DNA of 64,000 nt from Escherichia phage FEC19, in sequence record MH816966; one strand, 5' to 3'. Under the pieces are notes generated by a model, which saw only the letters and a program-made list of their open reading frames with translations, was not told the DNA's origin and made no database searches. Both the position numbers and the translations under genes were made by a program. Below are positions 10,703-24,968 of the stretch, one piece after another; the stretch's first letter is position 1; the number at the start of each line of letters is the position of its first letter.

Positions 10703-11886
10703 TGAACATTCCAGAATTTAATAATGAGCCAGTGATTCAGTTCAACGCGCAACAGATTGATGCCATCGAAAAGGCCGTTGCATGGTACAAGCGATTGCAG
10801 GACGGTAAAACGACGAAGCGCGTGTTTTTCATCGCTGGCTATGCAGGAACAGGTAAAACCTCTATTGCGCGTGAGATTGTGCGCCGTTGTGTCGGTGAGT
10901 ACGGTGCCATTTATATTGCGCCGACCGGAAAGGCCGCCAGCCGATTGAAGCAGAAAGGGTGTCGTGGCGCGAAGACCCTTCACCAGTTCATCTATAACGT
11001 GCGCGGCGTAAATGACGACAATGAGCCAATATTTTCGAGAAAGTCAAAGCTGGACGAAAAGCCGCATCTTGTAGTCCTTGATGAAGCTTCAATGGTTGGC
11101 GAGTGGGATACAGAGCGCCTTCTTGATCACCGCATCCCTGTGCTGGCATTAGGCGACATTGGACAAGTCCCTCCAGTAAAAGCCGCCGCCTACTTTACTG
11201 AAGATGCCGTTGACGTCCTGTTAACCGAAATCATGCGGCAGGGGAAAGAGTCCAACATAATCCGCGCTTCCTTCTTCGTGCGACAGGGCAACCGACTTCC
11301 TCCGCGTGAATACGATGACGTAAAGGTGTTGGCTGAATCGCCGCGCGTTACCGCGCTGAAGAAATTCATGGGCGAAGATGATCAAATTATTTGTTCATAT
11401 AATAGCACTAAAGATAAATGGAATTCATTATTGCGACAAGTGAGCGGACGTATAACGCCAATGCCAGGAATCGGCGAGAAAGTTATTTGCACATTCAACC
11501 AACACGGGCCAGGATTCTGTAATGGCGAGCAAGGGATTGTTATTAGTTATGAGCCAGTGCCGGACTTTGAAAGGGATGAAGACGAGTCTAATGAAATCAT
11601 GTATGTCAATTTGCGCTCGCTTACCGATGGCAAGGATATAAAGGTTAAGATCAATCCTCTTTCCTTCTCTACTGATCAGGAAGTGCGCAAAGAGGCTCAA
11701 CGCGCTGTTGGAGGTATGGACTATGGCTATGTCATAACGGTGCACAAATCGCAAGGCAGCGAGTGGGACAATGTGTGCGTGCTGGAAGAAATCTTGCGCG
11801 GCGTTCCGTATGCCAAGATGATGTACACAGCCATCACCCGCGCTAAGAAGAATCTGACCGTGTACCGTGATTTGAAAGCGCGTTAA
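10702..11886 (+). CDS. SF1 RecD/Dda-like DNA helicase
   Basis: Walker A GYAGTGKTS, Walker B VVLDEASMV, VHKSQGSEWDNV and AITRAKKNL; GTGGAG RBS. Confidence 0.85.
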   Translation: MNIPEFNNEPVIQFNAQQIDAIEKAVAWYKRLQDGKTTKRVFFIAGYAGTGKTSIAREIVRRCVGEYGAIYIAPTGKAASRLKQKGCRGAKTLHQFIYNVRGVNDDNEPIFSRKSKLDEKPHLVVLDEASMVGEWDTERLLDHRIPVLALGDIGQVPPVKAAAYFTEDAVDVLLTEIMRQGKESNIIRASFFVRQGNRLPPREYDDVKVLAESPRVTALKKFMGEDDQIICSYNSTKDKWNSLLRQVSGRITPMPGIGEKVICTFNQHGPGFCNGEQGIVISYEPVPDFERDEDESNEIMYVNLRSLTDGKDIKVKINPLSFSTDQEVRKEAQRAVGGMDYGYVITVHKSQGSEWDNVCVLEEILRGVPYAKMMYTAITRAKKNLTVYRDLKAR

Positions 11887-12045
11887 TGTTGACGTAAATT
11901 TACGAAAAATAAAACTGAAAATCAGTTTAATTAAAGTGGCATCGCCGCCAGAGTTTTTAGTTGCTACTGGCGGCGACTGAAGGCATAATTAAGTTATCCC
12001 AAACGGGGAATATAAAATAAACTAATTTATTTAAGGACTGTGAAT

Positions 12046-12885
12046 ATGGCCGAAGCAATCAAAGTATTATCTAAAGAAGAAAAACAAGCAGCTGCAGCAG
12101 AACGTCGTCGCGTGGCTGAAGAAAAACGCCTGGCTAAAAAGAAAGAAGCCGAAGAAAAACGCCAGAAGCGTGAGCAGGAAAAACAAGCCAAGCGTGAAGA
12201 AGCTGCGCTGAAACGCAAGCAGGCTGCTGATGAGAAGGCTCAGAAGCGTGCTGAAGAAGCAGCGAAGAAAGCCAAAGAGCGTGCAGAAAAGGCTGCTGCT
12301 AAGAAAGCAGAGCGTGAAGCCGCTAAAGCAGCAAAAGAAATCGAAAAGGCAAAGGCTAAAGAAGAAGCCAAGCGCCTGAAAGCTGAACAAGCTGCTGCTA
12401 AGAAAGCAGAGCGTGATCAAGCCCGTGCTGCAGCGAAGGCCGAAAAAGAGAAGGCCAAAGAAGAAGCTAAAGCGAAACGCAAGGCAGAGCGTGAAGCTGC
12501 TAAGATTGCGGCTAAAGAAGCTGCAGAAAAGCAGAAAGAACAGCGTAAGAAAGAAGCTGAAGAACGTCGCAAAGCCATCGCAGAACGTAAGGCTGCTAAA
12601 AAGGCAAACGGTCAGCGTCGTGCAAAAGCAACCCACTTCATCTACACTGGCAATGGCCTGAGCCAGCCGCAAGAGCATTCCACCCGTGGACGCGTTCTGG
12701 CGGCGATCAAAGAAGGCGAAGTTGGCGTGGCGCAGTCTATCGATGAGCTGGGCGAAAAAGTTAAAGATCAACTGTTTGGCGCTTCCGTTCGCTCCTACCT
12801 GAGCAAGCTGGAAGAGATGGGCCACATCGAGTTTGTCGATGTTGAATCCAACGAAGATGCCGAAGACGGTGATCAAGCGGAATAA
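12046..12885 (+). CDS. Lys/Glu/Ala-rich low-complexity protein with globular C-terminal domain
   Basis: About 200 aa of KAKEEAK/AEEKR repeats then an ordinary-composition C-terminal domain; ATG at 12046 with AAGGA RBS preferred over the GTG at 12040. Confidence 0.6.
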   Translation: MAEAIKVLSKEEKQAAAAERRRVAEEKRLAKKKEAEEKRQKREQEKQAKREEAALKRKQAADEKAQKRAEEAAKKAKERAEKAAAKKAEREAAKAAKEIEKAKAKEEAKRLKAEQAAAKKAERDQARAAAKAEKEKAKEEAKAKRKAEREAAKIAAKEAAEKQKEQRKKEAEERRKAIAERKAAKKANGQRRAKATHFIYTGNGLSQPQEHSTRGRVLAAIKEGEVGVAQSIDELGEKVKDQLFGASVRSYLSKLEEMGHIEFVDVESNEDAEDGDQAE

Positions 12886-12912
12886 CCTTAGGACGGTTAT
12901 GCAGCGGTAATT

Positions 12913-12939
12913 GACCCACACTTGTTGTGGGTCTTTTTT
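12913..12939 (+). terminator. rho-independent terminator
   Basis: GACCCACA-CTTGT-TGTGGGTC followed by TTTTTT. Confidence 0.7.
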
Positions 12940-12964
12940 CATCTGTACTAAATAAAATGACTTG

Positions 12965-12993
12965 TTGCTGTAAAATAATTTAGCTATTATACT
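12965..12993 (+). promoter_or_regulatory. sigma70-like promoter
   Basis: TTGCTG-17-TATACT upstream of 13018. Confidence 0.45.
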
Positions 12994-13017
12994 TCTCATA
13001 TCACCCACAAAGGACAA

Positions 13018-14013
13018 ATGAACATGAAACAACCTGTAATGATTATCGGCGGCGGACTGGCAGGACTTATCACCGCGTGTCACTTCCCGAACTCTGTTGT
13101 GTACGAAGCAGGGGAACGAGCGCAACAGCACAAGGCGCTGCTACGCTTTCGCAGCGAAGAAGTAAGCCGTATTACCGGAATCCCTTTTAAGGCCGTGACA
13201 GTTGACAAGGCTGTGTATTTTCGCGGCAACTACTATCACGACCATTGCCCAATCAACCTTGCCAATATGTATTCCATGAAGGTCACCAATCAATTTGGCA
13301 GCCGTTCAATCATGAAGCTTAAGACTGCAACGCGTTATATTGCGCCTGATGACTTTTATGATCAGCTTGTCGACAAACTGGGTGACCGCATATTCTTTGA
13401 TACTCCGGTTGATACTCTTTGCGGCTATAGCGAGACGCCAATCATCAACACGTCGCCGCTGCCAGTAATGATGAAGCTTGCTGGGATTGATCAAAAGCTT
13501 GATTTCTCATTTGATAAAGCAAACATTCGCGTTTACCGCTTTAAGATTAAACGTAAGTGTGATTTGTATCAGACAATTTACTTCCCTGACTACTCCGTCA
13601 GAACTTACCGCGCATCAATTACTGGTGACACGCTTATCATTGAAACAATTCCTTTGGTCAGCGTGAGTGAAGCTGCAGTTGAAGCCGCTGGCGGCATCAC
13701 TCGTTACCGTGACATGAAGCTGCGCGCAGAAGTCGACGAAGTGTTGACAGCCTTTGGCCTCTCATGGAGTGACATTGCTCTTGAAGAAGTTGAAAAGGTC
13801 GACCAGAAATATGGCAAGATTGTCGACATTCCGAAAGACTTGCGACACGCCCTACTCCTGCAGCTGACTATGGATTTGAACGTGTTCAGTGTCGGTCGAT
13901 TTGCTACCTGGCGCAACATTTTGCTTGATGACGTTGCCCATGACCTTGTTGAAGTTGAAAAACTCATCAAAGCAAATAACTATCAAAAATTTGCTTATAT
14001 TGCTAATAAATAA
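13018..14013 (+). CDS. FAD/NAD(P)-binding Rossmann-fold oxidoreductase (possibly UDP-galactopyranose-mutase-like)
   Basis: N-terminal VMIIGGGLAGLITA (GxGxxG); C-terminal VGRFATWRNILLDDV resembles the conserved C-terminal motif of flavin mutase/amine-oxidase-like enzymes. Confidence 0.6.
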   Translation: MNMKQPVMIIGGGLAGLITACHFPNSVVYEAGERAQQHKALLRFRSEEVSRITGIPFKAVTVDKAVYFRGNYYHDHCPINLANMYSMKVTNQFGSRSIMKLKTATRYIAPDDFYDQLVDKLGDRIFFDTPVDTLCGYSETPIINTSPLPVMMKLAGIDQKLDFSFDKANIRVYRFKIKRKCDLYQTIYFPDYSVRTYRASITGDTLIIETIPLVSVSEAAVEAAGGITRYRDMKLRAEVDEVLTAFGLSWSDIALEEVEKVDQKYGKIVDIPKDLRHALLLQLTMDLNVFSVGRFATWRNILLDDVAHDLVEVEKLIKANNYQKFAYIANK

Positions 14014-17181: not shown

Positions 17182-17733
17182 ATGCCACATTTTAAAATTG
17201 AACAAATCGCCCTGTCAATTCCAGATGCTCAGCGCGCACAGGATTTTCTGGCTAAAATCGGCCTGACAGAATGGTTCCATGATCATGTTGTTGCTACTGG
17301 TCGCGTATTTGAAGCTGATGACTTTAAAGGTCAGCGCGGCGATTGCACCAACGAAGCTGACTTGCGCTTCAACTATCAAGCTGGCAACGGCACCGATGGC
17401 GGCGCTGGTAAGCCTCTTGAACTTGAAATTCTTGACTACACGAAAGGCCGCAACTGGATTAACGAAAACATCGAATACATCGATGCACATGACAATCAGG
17501 TTAGCCATCTTGGTATGCACGTGACTGCCGCTGAACTTGCTGAATGGCGCAAGTTCTTTAAAGAAGAAGGCATTCAGGTTGCGCAGGAAGTTGTGACCGA
17601 CTCTCACACCAACCCAAACATTGCTGGTCAGCGTCGTTACAACTATGTGATCTTTGATACGCGTGAAATCATTGGTGTCGACCTTAAGTTCATCGTGCGG
17701 TTGAATCAAGACGGTACTCCGTACACTGTATAA
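17182..17733 (+). CDS. VOC/glyoxalase-fold protein (tentative)
   Basis: N-terminus HFKIEQIALSIPDAQRAQDFLAKIGLTEW has the glyoxalase/bleomycin-resistance-like pattern. Confidence 0.45.
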   Translation: MPHFKIEQIALSIPDAQRAQDFLAKIGLTEWFHDHVVATGRVFEADDFKGQRGDCTNEADLRFNYQAGNGTDGGAGKPLELEILDYTKGRNWINENIEYIDAHDNQVSHLGMHVTAAELAEWRKFFKEEGIQVAQEVVTDSHTNPNIAGQRRYNYVIFDTREIIGVDLKFIVRLNQDGTPYTV

Positions 17734-21227: not shown

Positions 21228-21636
21228 CCGCGAGCAAAAATACATATTCGTTCCTTTGAAGAAGCATTCAGAATCAATATTGAAGCTTCAACGAATCGAA
21301 TCGATGACTGGTGATGGCGTGCCGGACGTAATCGGCACCAACCGGAAAGGTCGCGGCTTTTGGCTTGAAATGAAGTTCTTTGAATCGTGGCCTGCAAGGG
21401 CCACCACTGCACCTTTCAGAAATGCATTTGAGAAAGGTCAGTGCAGCTTTCTTTCTTCGTGGAATGATTGGAAATACCCATCATTTGTTTTGCTTAAAGT
21501 CGATTCTGAGAAGATGTTTTATTTAGTCCACCCTTCGATTGAATTAAAGCGTTATAATATTGCAGACGTTCAACGTGAGATAATCGTGAAGGGAACTATT
21601 CACCACATCATTAAGTATTTAGAGGAATTGTCATGA
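21214..21636 (+). CDS. VRR-NUC-like nuclease
   Basis: GVPDVIGTNRKGRGFWLEMKF; start refined to MATNNREQKY; sits immediately upstream of the SNF2 helicase. Confidence 0.55.
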   Translation: MATNNREQKYIFVPLKKHSESILKLQRIESMTGDGVPDVIGTNRKGRGFWLEMKFFESWPARATTAPFRNAFEKGQCSFLSSWNDWKYPSFVLLKVDSEKMFYLVHPSIELKRYNIADVQREIIVKGTIHHIIKYLEELS

Positions 21637-23156
21637 AAACACAAGGGATGCGCCACCAGCTTCTGGCGCTTGATAAAGCAGGCCGCAGAAAATACTTTGC
21701 CTATTTCATGGAACAGGGTCTTGGTAAAACTTGGACCGCTTTGGCAGAGTTTGAAAAGCACTTCACCGCTGGCGCGTTCGATGCCATGGTAGTCATCGCT
21801 CCAAACGGTGTCCACTCAAACTGGATTCGTCGTGAAGCGCCAGAGCACCTTTCCATCAAGTGGATTGGGCACTACTGGCGCGGCAACGATAAGATGAAAA
21901 CTAAAAAGGGCAAGGCGCTTTGGGAGAAGATGTTTGCTGATCACTACCCCGAAGGCGAAGTGCCTGCGCGCATCTTCTCATTCAACATCGATACTGTCAA
22001 CACACCAGTCGGTTATCAACACATCGAGTCGGTCTTGAAGAAGTACCGCTGCCTGATGATCATCGACGAATCAACGCGCATCAAGAATAACACAGCCAAA
22101 CGCTCCATCAAGGTTGTGGAATTGGGACGGCTGGCAAAGGCCCGTCGAATCCTTTCTGGCACGCCGTTGCCGCGCTCGCCTGCGGATATTTACATGCAAT
22201 ACCACTTCCTTGAAGCAGGATTGCTCGGCACCAAATCATTCCGTGCCTTTAACTCTGAATTTACAGTGCTGCTTGAAGCGCACGACCCAGAGATGCAAGC
22301 CATCCTCAAGAAAATCGGCGGCAATGGCTATGGGATTCCGCAAGTGCCGCGCAAAGACCAGTTTGGCCGACCGATGTACAAGAACCTTGACAAGCTTATC
22401 CGGCTGATGGAACCGCACTATTTTCGTGCAACAAAAGCAGAATACTTGCCTGACCTTCCAGAGAAGGTGTACAAGTTTATTGACTTCGAGTTGTCGCCTA
22501 AACAACGCGATGTTTACGATGAACTCAAGAATGAGTACAACTATTTGATGGAATACAAGGGCGAAGAAGAAAACGTCAAGTTTGAGATGATCGCGTCGCG
22601 CACTAAGATGAAGCAGGTGACATCCGGCTTTGTTAAGGTGTATGATGAGATGGTCTACATGGAAGACAACCCACGATTCACGGCCTTTAAGGATTATGTG
22701 GAAGGTGTGCTGGAAGATGACCCAGAGCGCAAATTCATCGTTTGGGCCATCTTTAAGGAAGAGATGAACCAGATTAAGGACTGGCTTGAGTCTGAAGGCG
22801 TGGTCACTGGTGTATACAATGGTGAAACGTCCAAAGAGCAGCGAGAGTTCTTAATTGATGACTTCCAGAAGAATACAGTCGAGAACGGCGGAACGCAAGT
22901 CTTGGTTTGCCACGCTGCAGCGGCAGGCATCGGCATCACTCTTACCGCCGCTGACTTGGCAATTTATTATTCTTGCAACTACGACAACGAGCTGCGCAAA
23001 CAATCCGAAGACCGAAATCACCGCATCGGCACCAAATCAAGCGTGTTGTATGTTGATTTTATTGGTGTTGATACCATCGACGAAGAAATTCAGCGTTCAC
23101 TCAGTATGAAGTCAATGCTTGCTGATCACATCCTCGACGGCAAAAAGATGAATTAA
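21633..23156 (+). CDS. SNF2-family helicase
   Basis: LMIIDESTRIKN (DExx box), ILSGTPL, and a C-terminal helicase domain; ATGA overlap with the upstream gene. Confidence 0.85.
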   Translation: MKTQGMRHQLLALDKAGRRKYFAYFMEQGLGKTWTALAEFEKHFTAGAFDAMVVIAPNGVHSNWIRREAPEHLSIKWIGHYWRGNDKMKTKKGKALWEKMFADHYPEGEVPARIFSFNIDTVNTPVGYQHIESVLKKYRCLMIIDESTRIKNNTAKRSIKVVELGRLAKARRILSGTPLPRSPADIYMQYHFLEAGLLGTKSFRAFNSEFTVLLEAHDPEMQAILKKIGGNGYGIPQVPRKDQFGRPMYKNLDKLIRLMEPHYFRATKAEYLPDLPEKVYKFIDFELSPKQRDVYDELKNEYNYLMEYKGEEENVKFEMIASRTKMKQVTSGFVKVYDEMVYMEDNPRFTAFKDYVEGVLEDDPERKFIVWAIFKEEMNQIKDWLESEGVVTGVYNGETSKEQREFLIDDFQKNTVENGGTQVLVCHAAAAGIGITLTAADLAIYYSCNYDNELRKQSEDRNHRIGTKSSVLYVDFIGVDTIDEEIQRSLSMKSMLADHILDGKKMN

Positions 23157-23230: not shown

Positions 23231-23494
23231 ATGGTACGCATCCTTGAACGTTACAAAAATGAAGCTACTGGCGCAATCGCGTTCAAACGTCTTTTGGTCA
23301 AAGAAATTGACGGTATGTTCCGCGTTGTAAAAGAGTTTGATTATGGCAACGGTGCTGGGGTGAATACCGTAATTATGCCTGGCATCAAGGCATATAAGAC
23401 TTTAAAAGGCGCTGAGAAGGCTTTGGCGGCTTGGAAACCTGAACGTTATCAAATGACCCGTGTTGAAGGGCTAATGCAAGAAGGTAAAATATGA
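23231..23494 (+). CDS. hypothetical protein (87 aa)
   Basis: ORF downstream of a TTGACT-17-CATAAT promoter. Confidence 0.45.
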   Translation: MVRILERYKNEATGAIAFKRLLVKEIDGMFRVVKEFDYGNGAGVNTVIMPGIKAYKTLKGAEKALAAWKPERYQMTRVEGLMQEGKI

Positions 23495-24048
23495 GCAATA
23501 TTAATTGGGAAGATGATTTGCCGCAGGTTGCTCCTGAGAGCATTCAGGAGCGTCTTGCGCGCTTAGTATCTGAATTGGCAGAGCGCCAAGAAGCTTTGAC
23601 AGAGCTTGAAGATGAAGCTGATATGCAAAAGCAGCGCATCAGTGAAATCAAAACTGTTCTGCTTCCTGGCGTTATGGATGAGCTTGGCGTGTCCGAAATC
23701 AAGCTTGAAGACAAGACCAAAATCAAGGTCGAGTCAAAAGTAAACGCTTCAATCAAGAAAGAAAATGAATTGAAGGTATTCGATTGGCTTGTCAACAATG
23801 GTTACGGCGGCTTGATCAAGTCCAGCGTCACGGCTGAGTTCGGTCGCGAAGAAATCGAGCAAGCGCAAGAGATTGTTGCCGCGCTGCGTGAAGATGGTGT
23901 TGAAGCCACGTTGAAACAAGGCGTTCATTCTGCTACACTGAAGTCGTTTGTAAAAGAACAGCTGGAAGCGGGCAATCCAGTTAGTGAAGATATTAGCGTT
24001 TTTGAATACAAAGAAGCTAAAATAACCTTGCCTAAAAGCAAAAAGTAA
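23491..24048 (+). CDS. hypothetical coiled-coil protein (185 aa)
   Basis: Acidic, heptad-like N-terminus; sits just upstream of the SSB-like gene. Confidence 0.45.
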   Translation: MSNINWEDDLPQVAPESIQERLARLVSELAERQEALTELEDEADMQKQRISEIKTVLLPGVMDELGVSEIKLEDKTKIKVESKVNASIKKENELKVFDWLVNNGYGGLIKSSVTAEFGREEIEQAQEIVAALREDGVEATLKQGVHSATLKSFVKEQLEAGNPVSEDISVFEYKEAKITLPKSKK

Positions 24049-24107: not shown

Positions 24108-24968
24108 ATGTCTAAGAAAGAAACCACCGAAGTTGCAGTGAAAAACACCCAGATGTCCGCTATGGCTGATTTTGTCGACATGACCGATTTTGGCGCTGGT
24201 TTTGAAGGTGCCGATGCCGATGCGTATGCCATTCCTTTTATCGTCGTACTGCAGAAGATGTCTCCTATGGTCGACGAAGATGATCCAAAACACGTTCCTG
24301 GCGCAAAGGCTGGCATGCTTTACAACACCGTTACTGGTGAGTTGTATGACGGCAAGAAAGGCGTGCAGATCATCCCTTGCGCATTCAAACGCACCTTCAT
24401 TCTTTGGGGCGGTCGCGAGTCCGACGATAAAGGCTTTAAAGGTGAATTCACCAAAGAGCACGTTGATGCAGAAGTCGCGGCAGGCCGCGCTGTTGAGATC
24501 AACGGTAAGGTATTCGTGCCGGACGAAAACGGCAAGGTGCACGAGAAGAAATCTCCTTACTACGCAGATACACGCAACCACTTCGTAATTCTGTTGAACG
24601 AAGAAACTGGTGAATTTGGTAGCGCAATGCTGTCTCTGACTTCTTCCATGATCAAGCCGTCTCGCATGCTGATGACCGCTCTGCAGCAGAAGAAAGTTCA
24701 GACTCCGCAGGGTCTGAAAACGCCGCCGACCTTTATGAACATCGTTCGCATGGGTACTGCATCCCAGTCCAAAGACGGCAACACCTGGTCTGTTCTGAAG
24801 TTTGAGCTGGAAGGTCTGGTGCAGGACAAAGGCCTGTACGAAGTCGCCAAGGCATTCCACAACGACGTAGTGGGCGGTAACGTTAACATCGACCGCAGCA
24901 AGCAGGAAGAAGCAAGCGGTGCCGCTGGTCCTGTCAATGAAACTCCTACCGACGCAGAAGAGTTTTAA
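24108..24968 (+). CDS. putative ssDNA-binding protein
   Basis: Acidic C-terminal tail ending in Phe (ETPTDAEEF), as in T7 gp2.5 and bacterial SSBs; AGGAAAA RBS. Confidence 0.45.
   Translation: MSKKETTEVAVKNTQMSAMADFVDMTDFGAGFEGADADAYAIPFIVVLQKMSPMVDEDDPKHVPGAKAGMLYNTVTGELYDGKKGVQIIPCAFKRTFILWGGRESDDKGFKGEFTKEHVDAEVAAGRAVEINGKVFVPDENGKVHEKKSPYYADTRNHFVILLNEETGEFGSAMLSLTSSMIKPSRMLMTALQQKKVQTPQGLKTPPTFMNIVRMGTASQSKDGNTWSVLKFELEGLVQDKGLYEVAKAFHNDVVGGNVNIDRSKQEEASGAAGPVNETPTDAEEF

What the first reader, a model, noticed from the sequence alone, without database searches (positions are those of the whole stretch)
12046..12885. Extremely Lys/Glu/Ala-rich repeat protein with a globular C-terminal domain
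About 200 residues are almost entirely K, E, A, R and Q in short repeats, predicted to form a long charged helix, followed by an ordinary-composition domain of about 80 aa. This resembles histone H1-like or nucleoid-associated proteins and TolA-like spacers more than any standard phage replication protein. It has its own promoter and terminator.
Basis: seen in the sequence. Interest (0 to 1): 0.5.

Follow-up and report, generated by a model that had tools for sequence, protein, structure and literature searches.

The report
Charged-rod winged-helix phage protein
This is a real, very highly expressed gene of an E. coli Wifcevirus phage whose product is a predicted 26-nm single alpha-helix with one lysine/arginine face and one acidic face, ending in a small winged-helix domain and an acidic tail. 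It is conserved across PB1-like phages, has no known function, and its common database label 'TolA' is wrong.

Summary
ORF 12046-12885 (+) encodes 279 aa, and residues 11-195 are 94% K/E/A/R/Q. AlphaFold2 predicts one unbroken helix (residues 10-185) followed by a winged-helix (WH) domain and an acidic tail.

The window is a Wifcevirus. The gene is a core gene of PB1-like myoviruses (Pbunavirus, Myosmarvirus, BcepF1, Carpasinavirus and a Vibrio phage), almost always between a Dda-like helicase and an FAD-type protein, with a sigma-70-like promoter and a strong terminator.

- **Expression.** It has the highest share of E. coli-preferred codons of 69 ORFs in the window. Published mass spectrometry found it in CsCl-purified particles of two Wifceviruses.
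- **New feature.** K/R recur every 3.65-3.70 residues with D/E in antiphase, giving a helix with one basic and one acidic face. This is conserved although sequence, length (about 80-210 aa) and net charge (-23 to +18) are not.
- **TolA.** Membership fails: no membrane anchor, no TolA C-terminal domain, BLASTP E 0.22.
- **Linker histone H1.** Only an analogy: WH fold, but no linker-histone profile, reversed domain order, and many orthologues are acidic.

Best reading (about 0.4): an abundant DNA-associated architectural protein of the replication module. Rivals are a self-assembling scaffold or adaptor, packaged cargo, or a KfrA-like regulator.

The parts
11940..11978 (+). Stable hairpin or inverted repeat (arms 11942-11951 and 11967-11976, 15-nt loop) between the helicase stop codon and this gene. 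The loop contains the -35 hexamer. Possibly a 3' end structure of the upstream transcript, or an operator.
   Evidence: 10-nt arms, 100% complementary. RNA fold -24.6 kcal/mol, z -4.1, 0 of 200 shuffles as stable. There is no U-tract after the stem. Not conserved in other genera.
11961..11989 (+). Sigma-70-like promoter: TTGCTA, 17 nt, CATAAT.
   Evidence: 9 of 12 matches. The same TTGCnn-17-nATAAT arrangement is seen upstream of the Serratia Hera and Xanthomonas XcP1 orthologues (read by eye). No transcription start data were available to me.
12033..12037 (+). Shine-Dalgarno AAGGA, 8 nt before the ATG.
   Evidence: Sequence.
12046..12885 (+). CDS, 279 aa plus stop; member of phrog_4765 (unknown function).
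   Evidence: phrog_4765, E 6.6e-84; 95-99% identical DNA in 24 of the 27 matching Wifcevirus records, 90-95% in 3. Peptides detected by mass spectrometry in vB_Eco4M-7 and ECML-117. Highest share of preferred codons of 69 ORFs in the window.
12073..12600 (+). Residues 10-185: predicted single continuous alpha-helix, about 26 nm long, 4% hydrophobic. K/R form a stripe with a 3.70-residue period and D/E lie on the opposite face. Contains a degenerate 33-residue duplication.
   Evidence: helix 10-185. (periodicity power 12.6-14.8 depending on region limits, 0 of 300 shuffles reach it; D/E phase +172 degrees; basic face 61-67% K/R, with no D/E in three of its four angular bins). (duplication).
12610..12636 (+). 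Residues 189-197, GQRRAKATH: conserved basic arm joining the helix to the winged-helix domain (family consensus G-x-R-R-P-K/R-A-T-H).
   Evidence: (R191 and R192 nearly invariant).
12634..12837 (+). Residues 197-264: winged-helix-like domain (strand, H1, strand, H2, H3, strand). Invariant or nearly invariant residues: G204, S212, R214, R249, K254, L255, H260.
12838..12882 (+). Residues 265-279: acidic tail DVESNEDAEDGDQAE. An acidic tail of variable length occurs in most orthologues.
   Evidence: tail net charge -1 to -16 in six genera. Low pLDDT.
12913..12939 (+). Intrinsic terminator: GACCCACA-loop-TGTGGGTC followed by TTTTTT.
   Evidence: A GC-rich hairpin plus T-run directly follows the gene in all six genera examined.

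Best explanation
The gene encodes a very abundant cytoplasmic protein of the phage's replication and nucleotide-metabolism module. It most likely acts as a DNA-associated architectural protein.

**Shown**
- Residues 197-264 are predicted to fold as a winged helix, preceded by a conserved basic arm (G-x-RR-x-K-A-T-H).
- A predicted helix of about 176 residues (about 26 nm) carries a continuous K/R stripe on one face and Glu/Ala on the other.
- The protein ends in an acidic tail.
- The gene is a monocistronic unit with promoter-like and terminator-like signals, top-ranked codon adaptation and mass-spectrometric detection.

**Inferred**
- The winged-helix head and its arm anchor the protein on DNA. 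The conserved R249 and K254 on the third helix and S212/R214 at the start of the first helix would make the contacts.
- The basic stripe of the rod lies along the phosphate backbone or bridges to a second duplex.
- The acidic face and tail limit aggregation, tune DNA affinity or recruit partners such as the neighbouring Dda-like helicase. This would resemble the acidic tails of T4 gp32 and T7 gp2.5 (my own knowledge).
- Some protein travels with packaged DNA or co-purifies with it, which would explain its variable detection in virion preparations.
For: - **Conservation.** The conserved polar residues sit on the putative recognition helix and at the start of H1, and the RR arm is nearly invariant.
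- **Helix.** One long helix is predicted.
- **K/R stripe.** The 3.65-3.70-residue period exceeds all 300 shuffles in 13 of 18 family representatives, with D/E in antiphase. E. coli TolA domain II lacks it (power 0.4).
- **Abundance.** The share of preferred codons is 0.755, rank 1 of 69 and above the major capsid protein at 0.743. The CTD alone gives 0.747, and all 25 Arg codons are CGT or CGC.
- **Regulatory signals.** Promoter-like and terminator-like sites are present. A strong terminator follows the gene in all six genera examined, and the promoter arrangement recurs in at least two of the other five.
- **Translation.** Mass-spectrometry score 1197.6, seventh of 33 proteins, in CsCl-purified vB_Eco4M-7.
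- **Ghost particles.** The protein is absent from the list for LiCl/DNase-treated ghost particles of PB1-like phage SCUT-S1, while the neighbouring helicase is listed. This fits loss together with the DNA.
- **Neighbourhood.** A helicase lies upstream and an FAD-type protein downstream in nearly all of 29 IMG/VR loci, and also in a distant orthologue.
Against: - No DNA-binding test is possible with these tools.
- Whole-protein charge is not conserved (-23 to +18), and the PB1-like JG024 orthologue has pI 5.6. A simple polycation model therefore fails.
- Foldseek finds no significant PDB match (best E 0.35), and a family profile finds no solved relative by sequence.
- The helix prediction is for a monomer. 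A charge-zippered dimer or bundle was not examined.
- The preferred-codon list was recalled from memory.
- The absence from SCUT-S1 ghosts is weak evidence. Trypsin cuts the K/R-rich part into very small peptides, and I inferred the orthologue's ORF number from gene order.
Confidence: 0.4

Rival explanations
1. Self-assembling scaffold or adaptor. The rods, each with a basic and an acidic face, zip together laterally (basic face against acidic face) into dimers, bundles or filaments. The winged-helix head acts as a protein-binding module, as in RPA32C or ScpB, and recruits replication or assembly factors such as the neighbouring Dda-like helicase. DNA is not the primary ligand.
For: - D/E lie in antiphase to K/R in nearly all orthologues.
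- Many orthologues are near-neutral or acidic overall. That suits charge-complementary self-association better than DNA coating.
- The winged-helix core is acidic.
- High abundance suits a scaffold.
- The helicase neighbourhood is conserved.
Against: - There is no hydrophobic seam: 4% hydrophobic residues and no heptad signal (power at period 3.5 is about 1).
- AlphaFold2 shows no hairpin.
- The nearly invariant RR arm and the conserved R/K on the third helix look more like nucleic-acid contacts.
- Helix length varies from about 80 to 210 aa. That argues against a precise ruler, though not against a scaffold.
Confidence: 0.25
2. Packaged internal protein. The protein is loaded into the capsid with the genome, possibly injected with it, and shields or organises the incoming DNA. 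Wifceviruses are reported to be fairly resistant to restriction.
For: - Detected in CsCl-purified particles of two Wifceviruses. In vB_Eco4M-7 its score exceeds those of the portal and the major capsid protein.
- Not seen in the symmetric cryo-EM reconstruction of E217, as expected for a disordered internal protein (19 gene products built).
- Missing from DNA-free ghost particles.
- Restriction resistance of Wifcevirus is noted in PMC11990801.
Against: - Stoichiometry is inconsistent. The score is 1197.6 in vB_Eco4M-7 (major capsid protein 936) but 3.21 in ECML-117 (major capsid protein 110) with the same method.
- The same preparations contain clearly non-structural proteins: helicase, endolysin and reductase.
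- The gene lies in the replication module behind a host-type promoter rather than in the late structural block.
- The 'putative structural protein' label in PB1-like records traces to LBL3 ORF66, whose note reads 'putative cell wall associated hydrolase'. That is similarity-based. The orthologue in phage 14-1 is annotated 'hypothetical'.
Confidence: 0.15
3. Site-specific regulator or partition-type protein resembling KfrA. The winged-helix domain recognises a specific operator, for example the inverted repeat overlapping its own promoter, and the helical tail mediates multimerisation.
For: - A perfect 10-bp inverted repeat (11942-11951 and 11967-11976) overlaps the -35 hexamer and spacer of the promoter.
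- The gene is monocistronic.
- The architecture, a winged helix plus a long helix, recalls KfrA of IncP plasmids (my own knowledge).
- Distant winged-helix relatives sit in a mobile element beside replication genes.
Against: - The inverted repeat is not conserved in the other genera.
- Codon adaptation equal to the capsid protein's is atypical for a regulator.
- There is no Pfam KfrA_N hit or any other HTH family hit.
- The domain order is reversed relative to KfrA.
Confidence: 0.1
4. True TolA-like envelope-spanning protein, or a cell-wall-associated protein, as written in many database records.
For: Only the K/A/E-rich composition and the annotations 'TolA protein' and 'putative cell wall associated hydrolase'.
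Against: - No hydrophobic segment: the maximum 19-residue hydropathy is 0.61.
- No TolA C-terminal domain, whereas E. coli TolA scores 2e-38 on PF06519.
- BLASTP against E. coli TolA gives E 0.22.
- The charge periodicity differs.
Confidence: 0.02

Closest known systems
TolA domain II (Tol-Pal system), the usual database label
   Same: A long helical stretch rich in Lys, Ala and Glu, followed by a small globular C-terminal domain.
   Different: No N-terminal membrane anchor, no TolA C-terminal domain (PF06519), and no significant alignment (E 0.22). TolA domain II lacks the 3.7-residue K/R stripe (power 0.4, against 12.6-14.8 here). The phage protein is cytoplasmic by sequence.
Linker histone H1/H5
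   Same: A winged-helix globular domain joined to a long Lys/Ala-rich extension, and high abundance. H1 is a DNA-associated architectural protein, which is only inferred here.
   Different: - No match to the linker-histone profile. The Foldseek match to yeast Hho1p GII is not significant (E 2.2).
- The charged part is N-terminal, predicted helical and rich in Glu. The H1 tail is C-terminal, disordered and rich in Pro (my own knowledge).
- Many orthologues are net acidic.
Phage histone-like proteins: phi29 p6 and SPO1 TF1 (my own knowledge)
   Same: Very abundant early or middle phage proteins that coat or organise phage DNA. p6 uses an N-terminal amphipathic helix with a basic face and has an acidic C-terminal tail.
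   Different: No sequence or fold relationship was found. p6 is about 100 aa with no winged helix or rod, and TF1 is an HU-type dimer. DNA binding is demonstrated for them and not for this protein.
KfrA of IncP plasmids (my own knowledge)
   Same: A helix-turn-helix or winged-helix DNA-binding head plus a very long alanine-rich alpha-helical tail, encoded by a monocistronic gene with an operator at its own promoter.
   Different: The domain order is reversed, there is no KfrA_N Pfam hit, and the KfrA tail is a heptad coiled coil. Here there is no heptad signal and only 4% hydrophobic residues.
Charged single alpha-helices (ER/K motifs, e.g. myosin VI/X, caldesmon) and designed (EAAAK)n helices
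   Same: A hydrophobic-poor helix rich in E, K, R and A, expected to be stable as a monomer. Opposite-charge pairs at i/i+3 and i/i+4 are enriched (z 2.9 in the window, up to 4.9 in orthologues).
   Different: Typical ER/K helices alternate blocks of E and K, so charge repeats about every 7-9 residues around the whole helix (my own knowledge). Here K/R repeat every 3.7 residues on one face and D/E sit on the other.
11-residue-repeat helices (group 3 LEA proteins, apolipoproteins, alpha-synuclein, type I antifreeze proteins; my own knowledge)
   Same: A periodicity of about 11/3 residues that keeps one stripe on one side of a long helix. Here there is a 33-residue duplication, which is 3 x 11.
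   Different: Those helices have a hydrophobic or ice-binding face. This one has a basic face and an acidic/alanine face, no hydrophobic face, and a winged-helix domain attached.

Membership tests
TolA (Tol-Pal system) | N-terminal transmembrane anchor (domain I) | tested here: not met
   The maximum 19-residue Kyte-Doolittle hydropathy is 0.61, well below about 1.6. The N-terminus MAEAIKVLSKEEK is polar.
TolA (Tol-Pal system) | TolA C-terminal domain (Pfam PF06519) | tested here: not met
   E. coli TolA hits PF06519 at 2e-38. The phage protein and its CTD hit no Pfam family at E below 0.05.
TolA (Tol-Pal system) | Sequence similarity beyond composition | tested here: not met
   BLASTP with composition adjustment gives a best E of 0.22 over 28 residues.
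Linker histone H1/H5 | Globular domain matching the linker-histone family (PF00538) | tested here: not met
   No Pfam hit. The Foldseek match to Hho1p GII has E 2.2 and probability 0.11. Only the generic winged-helix fold is shared.
Linker histone H1/H5 | C-terminal, strongly basic tail; protein net basic | tested here: not met
   The charged region is N-terminal, predicted helical and 21% Glu. Orthologue net charge ranges from -23 to +18.
Winged-helix fold (superfamily level) | H1-strand-H2-H3-strand topology with a three-helix core and a small sheet | tested here: met
Winged-helix fold (superfamily level) | Nucleic-acid binding through the third helix and a wing or arm | not testable with these tools
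   There is only indirect support: conserved R249 and K254 on H3, S212/R214 at the start of H1, and the RR arm.
Charged single alpha-helix (ER/K type) | Long helix with very few hydrophobic residues and a high E+K+R content | tested here: met
   Residues 10-185 are predicted as one helix, with 4% hydrophobic, 36% K+R and 22% D+E residues.
Charged single alpha-helix (ER/K type) | Alternating blocks of acidic and basic residues giving i to i+4 salt bridges all around the helix | tested here: inconclusive
   Opposite-charge pairs at i/i+3 and i/i+4 are enriched (z 2.9), but not in every orthologue (BcepF1 z -0.2). The dominant K/R period is 3.7 with the charges on separate faces, which is not the usual ER/K pattern.
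KfrA-like plasmid proteins | KfrA_N DNA-binding domain at the N-terminus, with a heptad coiled-coil tail | tested here: not met
   No Pfam family was hit. The globular domain is C-terminal. Power at period 3.5 is about 0.7-1.2.
Virion structural protein | Reproducible, stoichiometric presence in purified particles | tested here: inconclusive
   This rests on the literature only. The protein is present in CsCl-purified vB_Eco4M-7 (score 1197.6) and ECML-117 (score 3.21). It is not listed for SCUT-S1 ghost particles. The mass-spectrometry tables for Pa193 and FoX6 were not available. The 'structural' label in PB1-like records is similarity-based.

The most novel reading that the evidence does not exclude
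PB1-like and Wifcevirus phages may run a minimal chromatin-like system. An abundant rod-shaped winged-helix protein would coat or bridge the phage genome through its basic stripe while presenting an acidic outer face. It would be handled by the phage's own SNF2-type translocase (21633-23156) and Dda-like helicase. The coat would organise replicating DNA and hide it from host nucleases, contributing to the restriction resistance reported for Wifceviruses. The helix with one basic and one acidic face at a 3.7-residue period would then be a previously undescribed DNA-coating module.
Probability: 0.1. Interest if true: 0.8.

Novelty: new variant of a known kind. Interest (0 to 1): 0.45.

Why it matters
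Pbunaviruses are among the Pseudomonas phages most used in therapy, and Wifceviruses are their E. coli relatives. This is one of their most highly expressed conserved genes, yet it is either unannotated or mislabelled 'TolA' or 'structural protein'.

Correcting the label is useful in itself. Showing that the conserved feature is a charge-segregated helical rod on a winged-helix head, rather than a polycationic tail, gives a concrete testable hypothesis for how these phages organise or protect their DNA.

The rod may also interest protein engineers. It is a natural, rigid single helix up to about 30 nm long with two faces of opposite charge.

Tried and rejected
- **Profile libraries.** Pfam, NCBIfam and PADLOC gave nothing significant for the whole protein or the CTD. 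The best hit was Csa3 wHTH at E 0.011. PHROGs gave only phrog_4765, of unknown function.
- **Solved structures by sequence.** A single-sequence search and a 33-sequence family profile both gave nothing below E 0.4.
- **Fold searches.** Foldseek against the PDB had a best E of 0.35. Foldseek against BFVD returned only orthologues. The AFDB library was unavailable.
- **Word-indexed protein search.** It returned only fragments, 3 and then 9 proteins. Full-length low-complexity members evidently escape the index, so I used tblastn on phage records and the exhaustive HMMER search instead.
- **Experimental promoter and terminator data.** I tried to obtain these for the phage 14-1 orthologue from the ONT-cappable-seq paper, and virion mass-spectrometry tables for Pa193 and FoX6. 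No supplementary files are held.
- **The 'putative structural protein' label.** I traced it in the hope that it rested on proteomics. It goes back to a similarity note in LBL3, so I do not count it as evidence.
- **Canonical coiled coil.** Rejected: no 3.5-residue signal and 4% hydrophobic residues.
- **Fixed-length molecular ruler.** Rejected: orthologue helices range from about 80 to 210 aa.
- **Antisense ORF 12067-13131.** Rejected as a mirror artefact of the codon composition.
- **Contexts of distant winged-helix relatives.** These were mostly on short contigs and uninformative.
- **IMG/VR search with the 33-sequence alignment.** It failed because no stretch was conserved enough. The 7-sequence alignment worked.
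Full report
**What is there.** The window is a Wifcevirus, an E. coli/Shigella myovirus. Positions 11000-14000 match 27 phage records: 24 at 95-99% identity and 3 at 90-95%. They include RCIP0363, ECO71P1, WFH, ECML-117 and Bas99/100.

ORF 12046-12885 (+) encodes 279 aa. The ATG is preceded by AAGGA at 8 nt, and the curated Bas99 record has the same 840-nt CDS, labelled 'hypothetical protein'.

Residues 11-195 are 94% K/E/A/R/Q with net charge +28. Residues 196-279 have ordinary composition, net -11, and end in an acidic tail.

'Short repeats' is the one loose point. DNA-level tandem repeats are negligible. At protein level there is a degenerate 33-residue duplication and significantly more repeated 6-8-mers than in shuffles.

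**Regulatory signals and expression.** A sigma-70-like site (TTGCTA-17-CATAAT, 11961-11989) lies upstream, and a hairpin plus T-run (12913-12939) lies downstream.

In five other genera (Pbunavirus JG024, Myosmarvirus Hera, BcepF1, Carpasinavirus XcP1 and Vibrio phage JSF39) the orthologue is also followed at once by a GC-rich hairpin and T-run. In at least Hera and XcP1 it is also preceded by a TTGCnn-17-nATAAT arrangement.

A very stable hairpin (11940-11978; -24.6 kcal/mol, z -4.1) sits between the helicase stop codon and the -10 element, and its loop holds the -35 hexamer. Its role is open: transcript end, attenuator or operator.

The gene uses E. coli-preferred codons more than any other of the 69 ORFs in the window. 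Its share is 0.755, against 0.743 for the major capsid protein and a median of 0.52.
- The ordinary-composition CTD alone scores 0.747, so this is not a side effect of K/E/A content.
- All 25 Arg codons are CGT or CGC, and 9 of 10 Leu codons are CTG.
- The preferred-codon list is from my own knowledge.

Published mass spectrometry on CsCl-purified particles found the orthologue, called 'TolA protein', in two phages. In vB_Eco4M-7 it gave 7 peptides, 25.8% coverage and a score of 1197.6, seventh of 33 and above the portal and capsid proteins. In ECML-117 it gave 2 peptides and a score of 3.21 (PMC7048862). The ORF is therefore translated and abundant.

**Family and neighbourhood.**
- tblastn with the CTD finds it in 355 phage records: 293 Pseudomonas (PB1-like), 25 Escherichia, 9 Serratia, 6 each of Burkholderia and Xanthomonas, 3 Pantoea, and others including a Vibrio phage.
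- An exhaustive HMMER search of 1.84 billion representative proteins gives only 45 clusters. This is a small, lineage-restricted family, equal to phrog_4765 of unknown function.
- In 29 IMG/VR loci with 49-99% CTD identity, a Dda-like helicase lies upstream and an FAD-type 330-aa protein downstream in nearly all. ThyX and polynucleotide kinase follow further on.
- A distant orthologue with a helix of only about 80 residues keeps the same order.
- Every full-length member has the same plan: a non-conserved N-terminus, a K/E/A/R/Q-rich region of about 80-210 aa, a basic arm (G-x-RR-P-K/R-A-T-H), a conserved domain of about 70 aa, and an acidic tail.
- The CTD is conserved far above shuffles (z 7-21). 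The helix region is conserved only weakly (z 1-7).

**Structure.** With a family alignment, AlphaFold2 predicts the CTD with core pLDDT above 90 as strand-H1-strand-H2-H3-strand. It predicts the full protein as one uninterrupted helix over residues 10-185 (about 264 A at 1.5 A per residue), followed by that domain.

- Foldseek finds nothing significant in the PDB and only orthologues among viral models.
- A family profile finds no solved relative by sequence.

The result is a winged-helix fold without a close characterised relative. The conserved residues are G204, S212, R214 (start of H1), R249, K254, L255 (H3), H260 and R191/R192 in the arm.

**The unexpected feature.** In the window and five orthologues from other genera, K/R positions show a sharp periodicity at 3.7 residues, with power 9-16 against a null mean of 1.
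- Across 18 representatives at or below 50% identity, the peak lies at 3.65-3.70 and exceeds all 300 composition-preserving shuffles in 13. D/E are 140-180 degrees out of phase.
- On an 11/3 helical wheel, four adjacent angular bins are 61-67% K/R. Three of them hold no acidic residue and the fourth is 22% D/E. The opposite side is Glu/Ala/Gln.
- The period is not 3.5, so there is no heptad coiled coil. Hydrophobic residues make up only 4%.
- E. coli TolA domain II, the protein this gene is usually named after, has no such signal (power 0.4).
- The 33-residue duplication (3 x 11) fits the same register.

The conserved property is thus a helix with one basic and one acidic face, not bulk charge. 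Whole-protein net charge ranges from -23 to +18, and the PB1-like orthologue has pI 5.6. The Wifcevirus version is the most basic of those examined.

**What it is not.**
- *TolA.* There is no membrane anchor (maximum hydropathy 0.61) and no PF06519 domain, which E. coli TolA hits at 2e-38. BLASTP gives E 0.22.
- *A proven virion structural protein.* The 'putative structural protein' label in PB1-like records goes back to LBL3 ORF66, whose note reads 'putative cell wall associated hydrolase'. The orthologue in phage 14-1 is 'hypothetical'. It is not among the 31 proteins of SCUT-S1 ghost particles. Its mass-spectrometry signal relative to the capsid protein differs more than 100-fold between two Wifceviruses prepared the same way.
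- *A linker histone.* There is no profile match, the domain order is reversed, the charged part is a Glu-rich helix, and many orthologues are acidic.

**Most likely mechanism.** I favour an abundant DNA-associated architectural protein of the replication module, with confidence about 0.4.

The shown steps are the winged-helix fold prediction, the conserved basic arm, the basic stripe, high expression, and the conserved position beside the Dda-like helicase.

The inferred steps are these:
- the head and arm bind DNA;
- the basic stripe lies on the backbone or bridges a second duplex;
- the acidic face and tail prevent aggregation, tune affinity or recruit partners;
- the protein co-purifies or is co-packaged with DNA.

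Phage phi29 p6 is the nearest functional analogue, by my own knowledge. It is abundant, has an amphipathic basic helix and an acidic tail, and organises phage DNA.

The rivals, with my confidence in each:
- charge-zippered scaffold or adaptor in which the winged helix binds proteins (0.25);
- packaged cargo protecting the injected genome (0.15);
- KfrA-like autoregulator using the inverted repeat at its promoter (0.1);
- true TolA-like protein (0.02).

**Novelty and value.** I found no functional study of this family in the searchable literature. The most detailed recent Pbunavirus annotation paper does not discuss it.

It is a new variant of a known kind: a winged-helix protein with a charged helical extension. 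The extension has an unusual and strongly conserved charge geometry. Interest is moderate, because nothing here overturns current understanding. Still, it is a top-expressed core gene of therapeutically used phages, and the hypothesis is clear and cheap to test.

Noticed in passing
window 13018-14013 (+): The next gene encodes a 331-aa protein with an N-terminal GGGLAGL dinucleotide-binding motif. It belongs to phrog_4828 (unknown function) and has no Pfam, NCBIfam or PDB-sequence hit. One record (phage Mansfield) calls it UDP-galactopyranose mutase. It follows the K/E/A gene in nearly all related loci, so the helicase, rod protein and FAD-type protein form a conserved trio.
   Followed up: partly
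window 11940-11978: Very stable hairpin (10-bp perfect arms, 15-nt loop; -24.6 kcal/mol, z -4.1) between the helicase stop codon and this gene. Its loop contains the promoter's -35 hexamer and no U-tract follows. It could be a transcript-end or attenuator structure, or an operator. It is not conserved in other genera.
   Followed up: partly
window 12067-13131 (-): A 354-aa antisense ORF rich in F, S, L and C runs through the whole gene. It is a mirror artefact of the GAA/AAA/GCT codon composition, not a gene.
   Followed up: yes
window 21633-23156 (+): SNF2-related translocase (PF00176 at 8.6e-22, plus Helicase_C) in the same replication block. A 2025 paper on Pbunavirus Banzai likens its orthologue to chromatin remodellers.
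   Followed up: partly
window 23491-24048 and 24108-24968 (+): These are Pam3 gp33-like (DUF7307) and Pam3 gp34-like proteins encoded outside the main structural block. By size and gene order they appear to correspond to vB_Eco4M-7_71 and _70, which published mass spectrometry detected in virion preparations. ORF 24108-24968 has the third-highest share of preferred codons in the window. They are probably true virion proteins.
   Followed up: partly
window 17182-17733 (+): A 183-aa protein with a weak glyoxalase-fold hit (E 8e-4, below the curated cut-off). It has one of the highest shares of preferred codons. It appears, by size and gene order, to be the 'glyoxalase family protein' (vB_Eco4M-7_77) that scored 718 in the virion preparation. 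Its function is unknown.
   Followed up: no
P0034, P0036, P0037, P0039, P0041-P0046; locus L008 8001-8747: Distant relatives of the winged-helix domain carry a different, well-conserved N-terminal domain (…ADLxETYNALTGKSIKKFENR…) instead of the charged helix. One lies in a mobile element beside RepB_primase, DUF5906, DUF932 and DUF2786 genes. This is an uncharacterised sister family.
   Followed up: partly
P0030-P0032 (137-148 aa); L009 861-1280: Miniature family members in metagenomes have only a short, arginine-rich helix of 30-55 residues before the same winged-helix domain, and pI 10-11.
   Followed up: no
L025 (IMG/VR 3300020045_015028) 22-609: In this one related contig the Dda-like helicase homologue lies on the opposite strand upstream of the rod-protein gene, unlike all other loci.
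   Followed up: no
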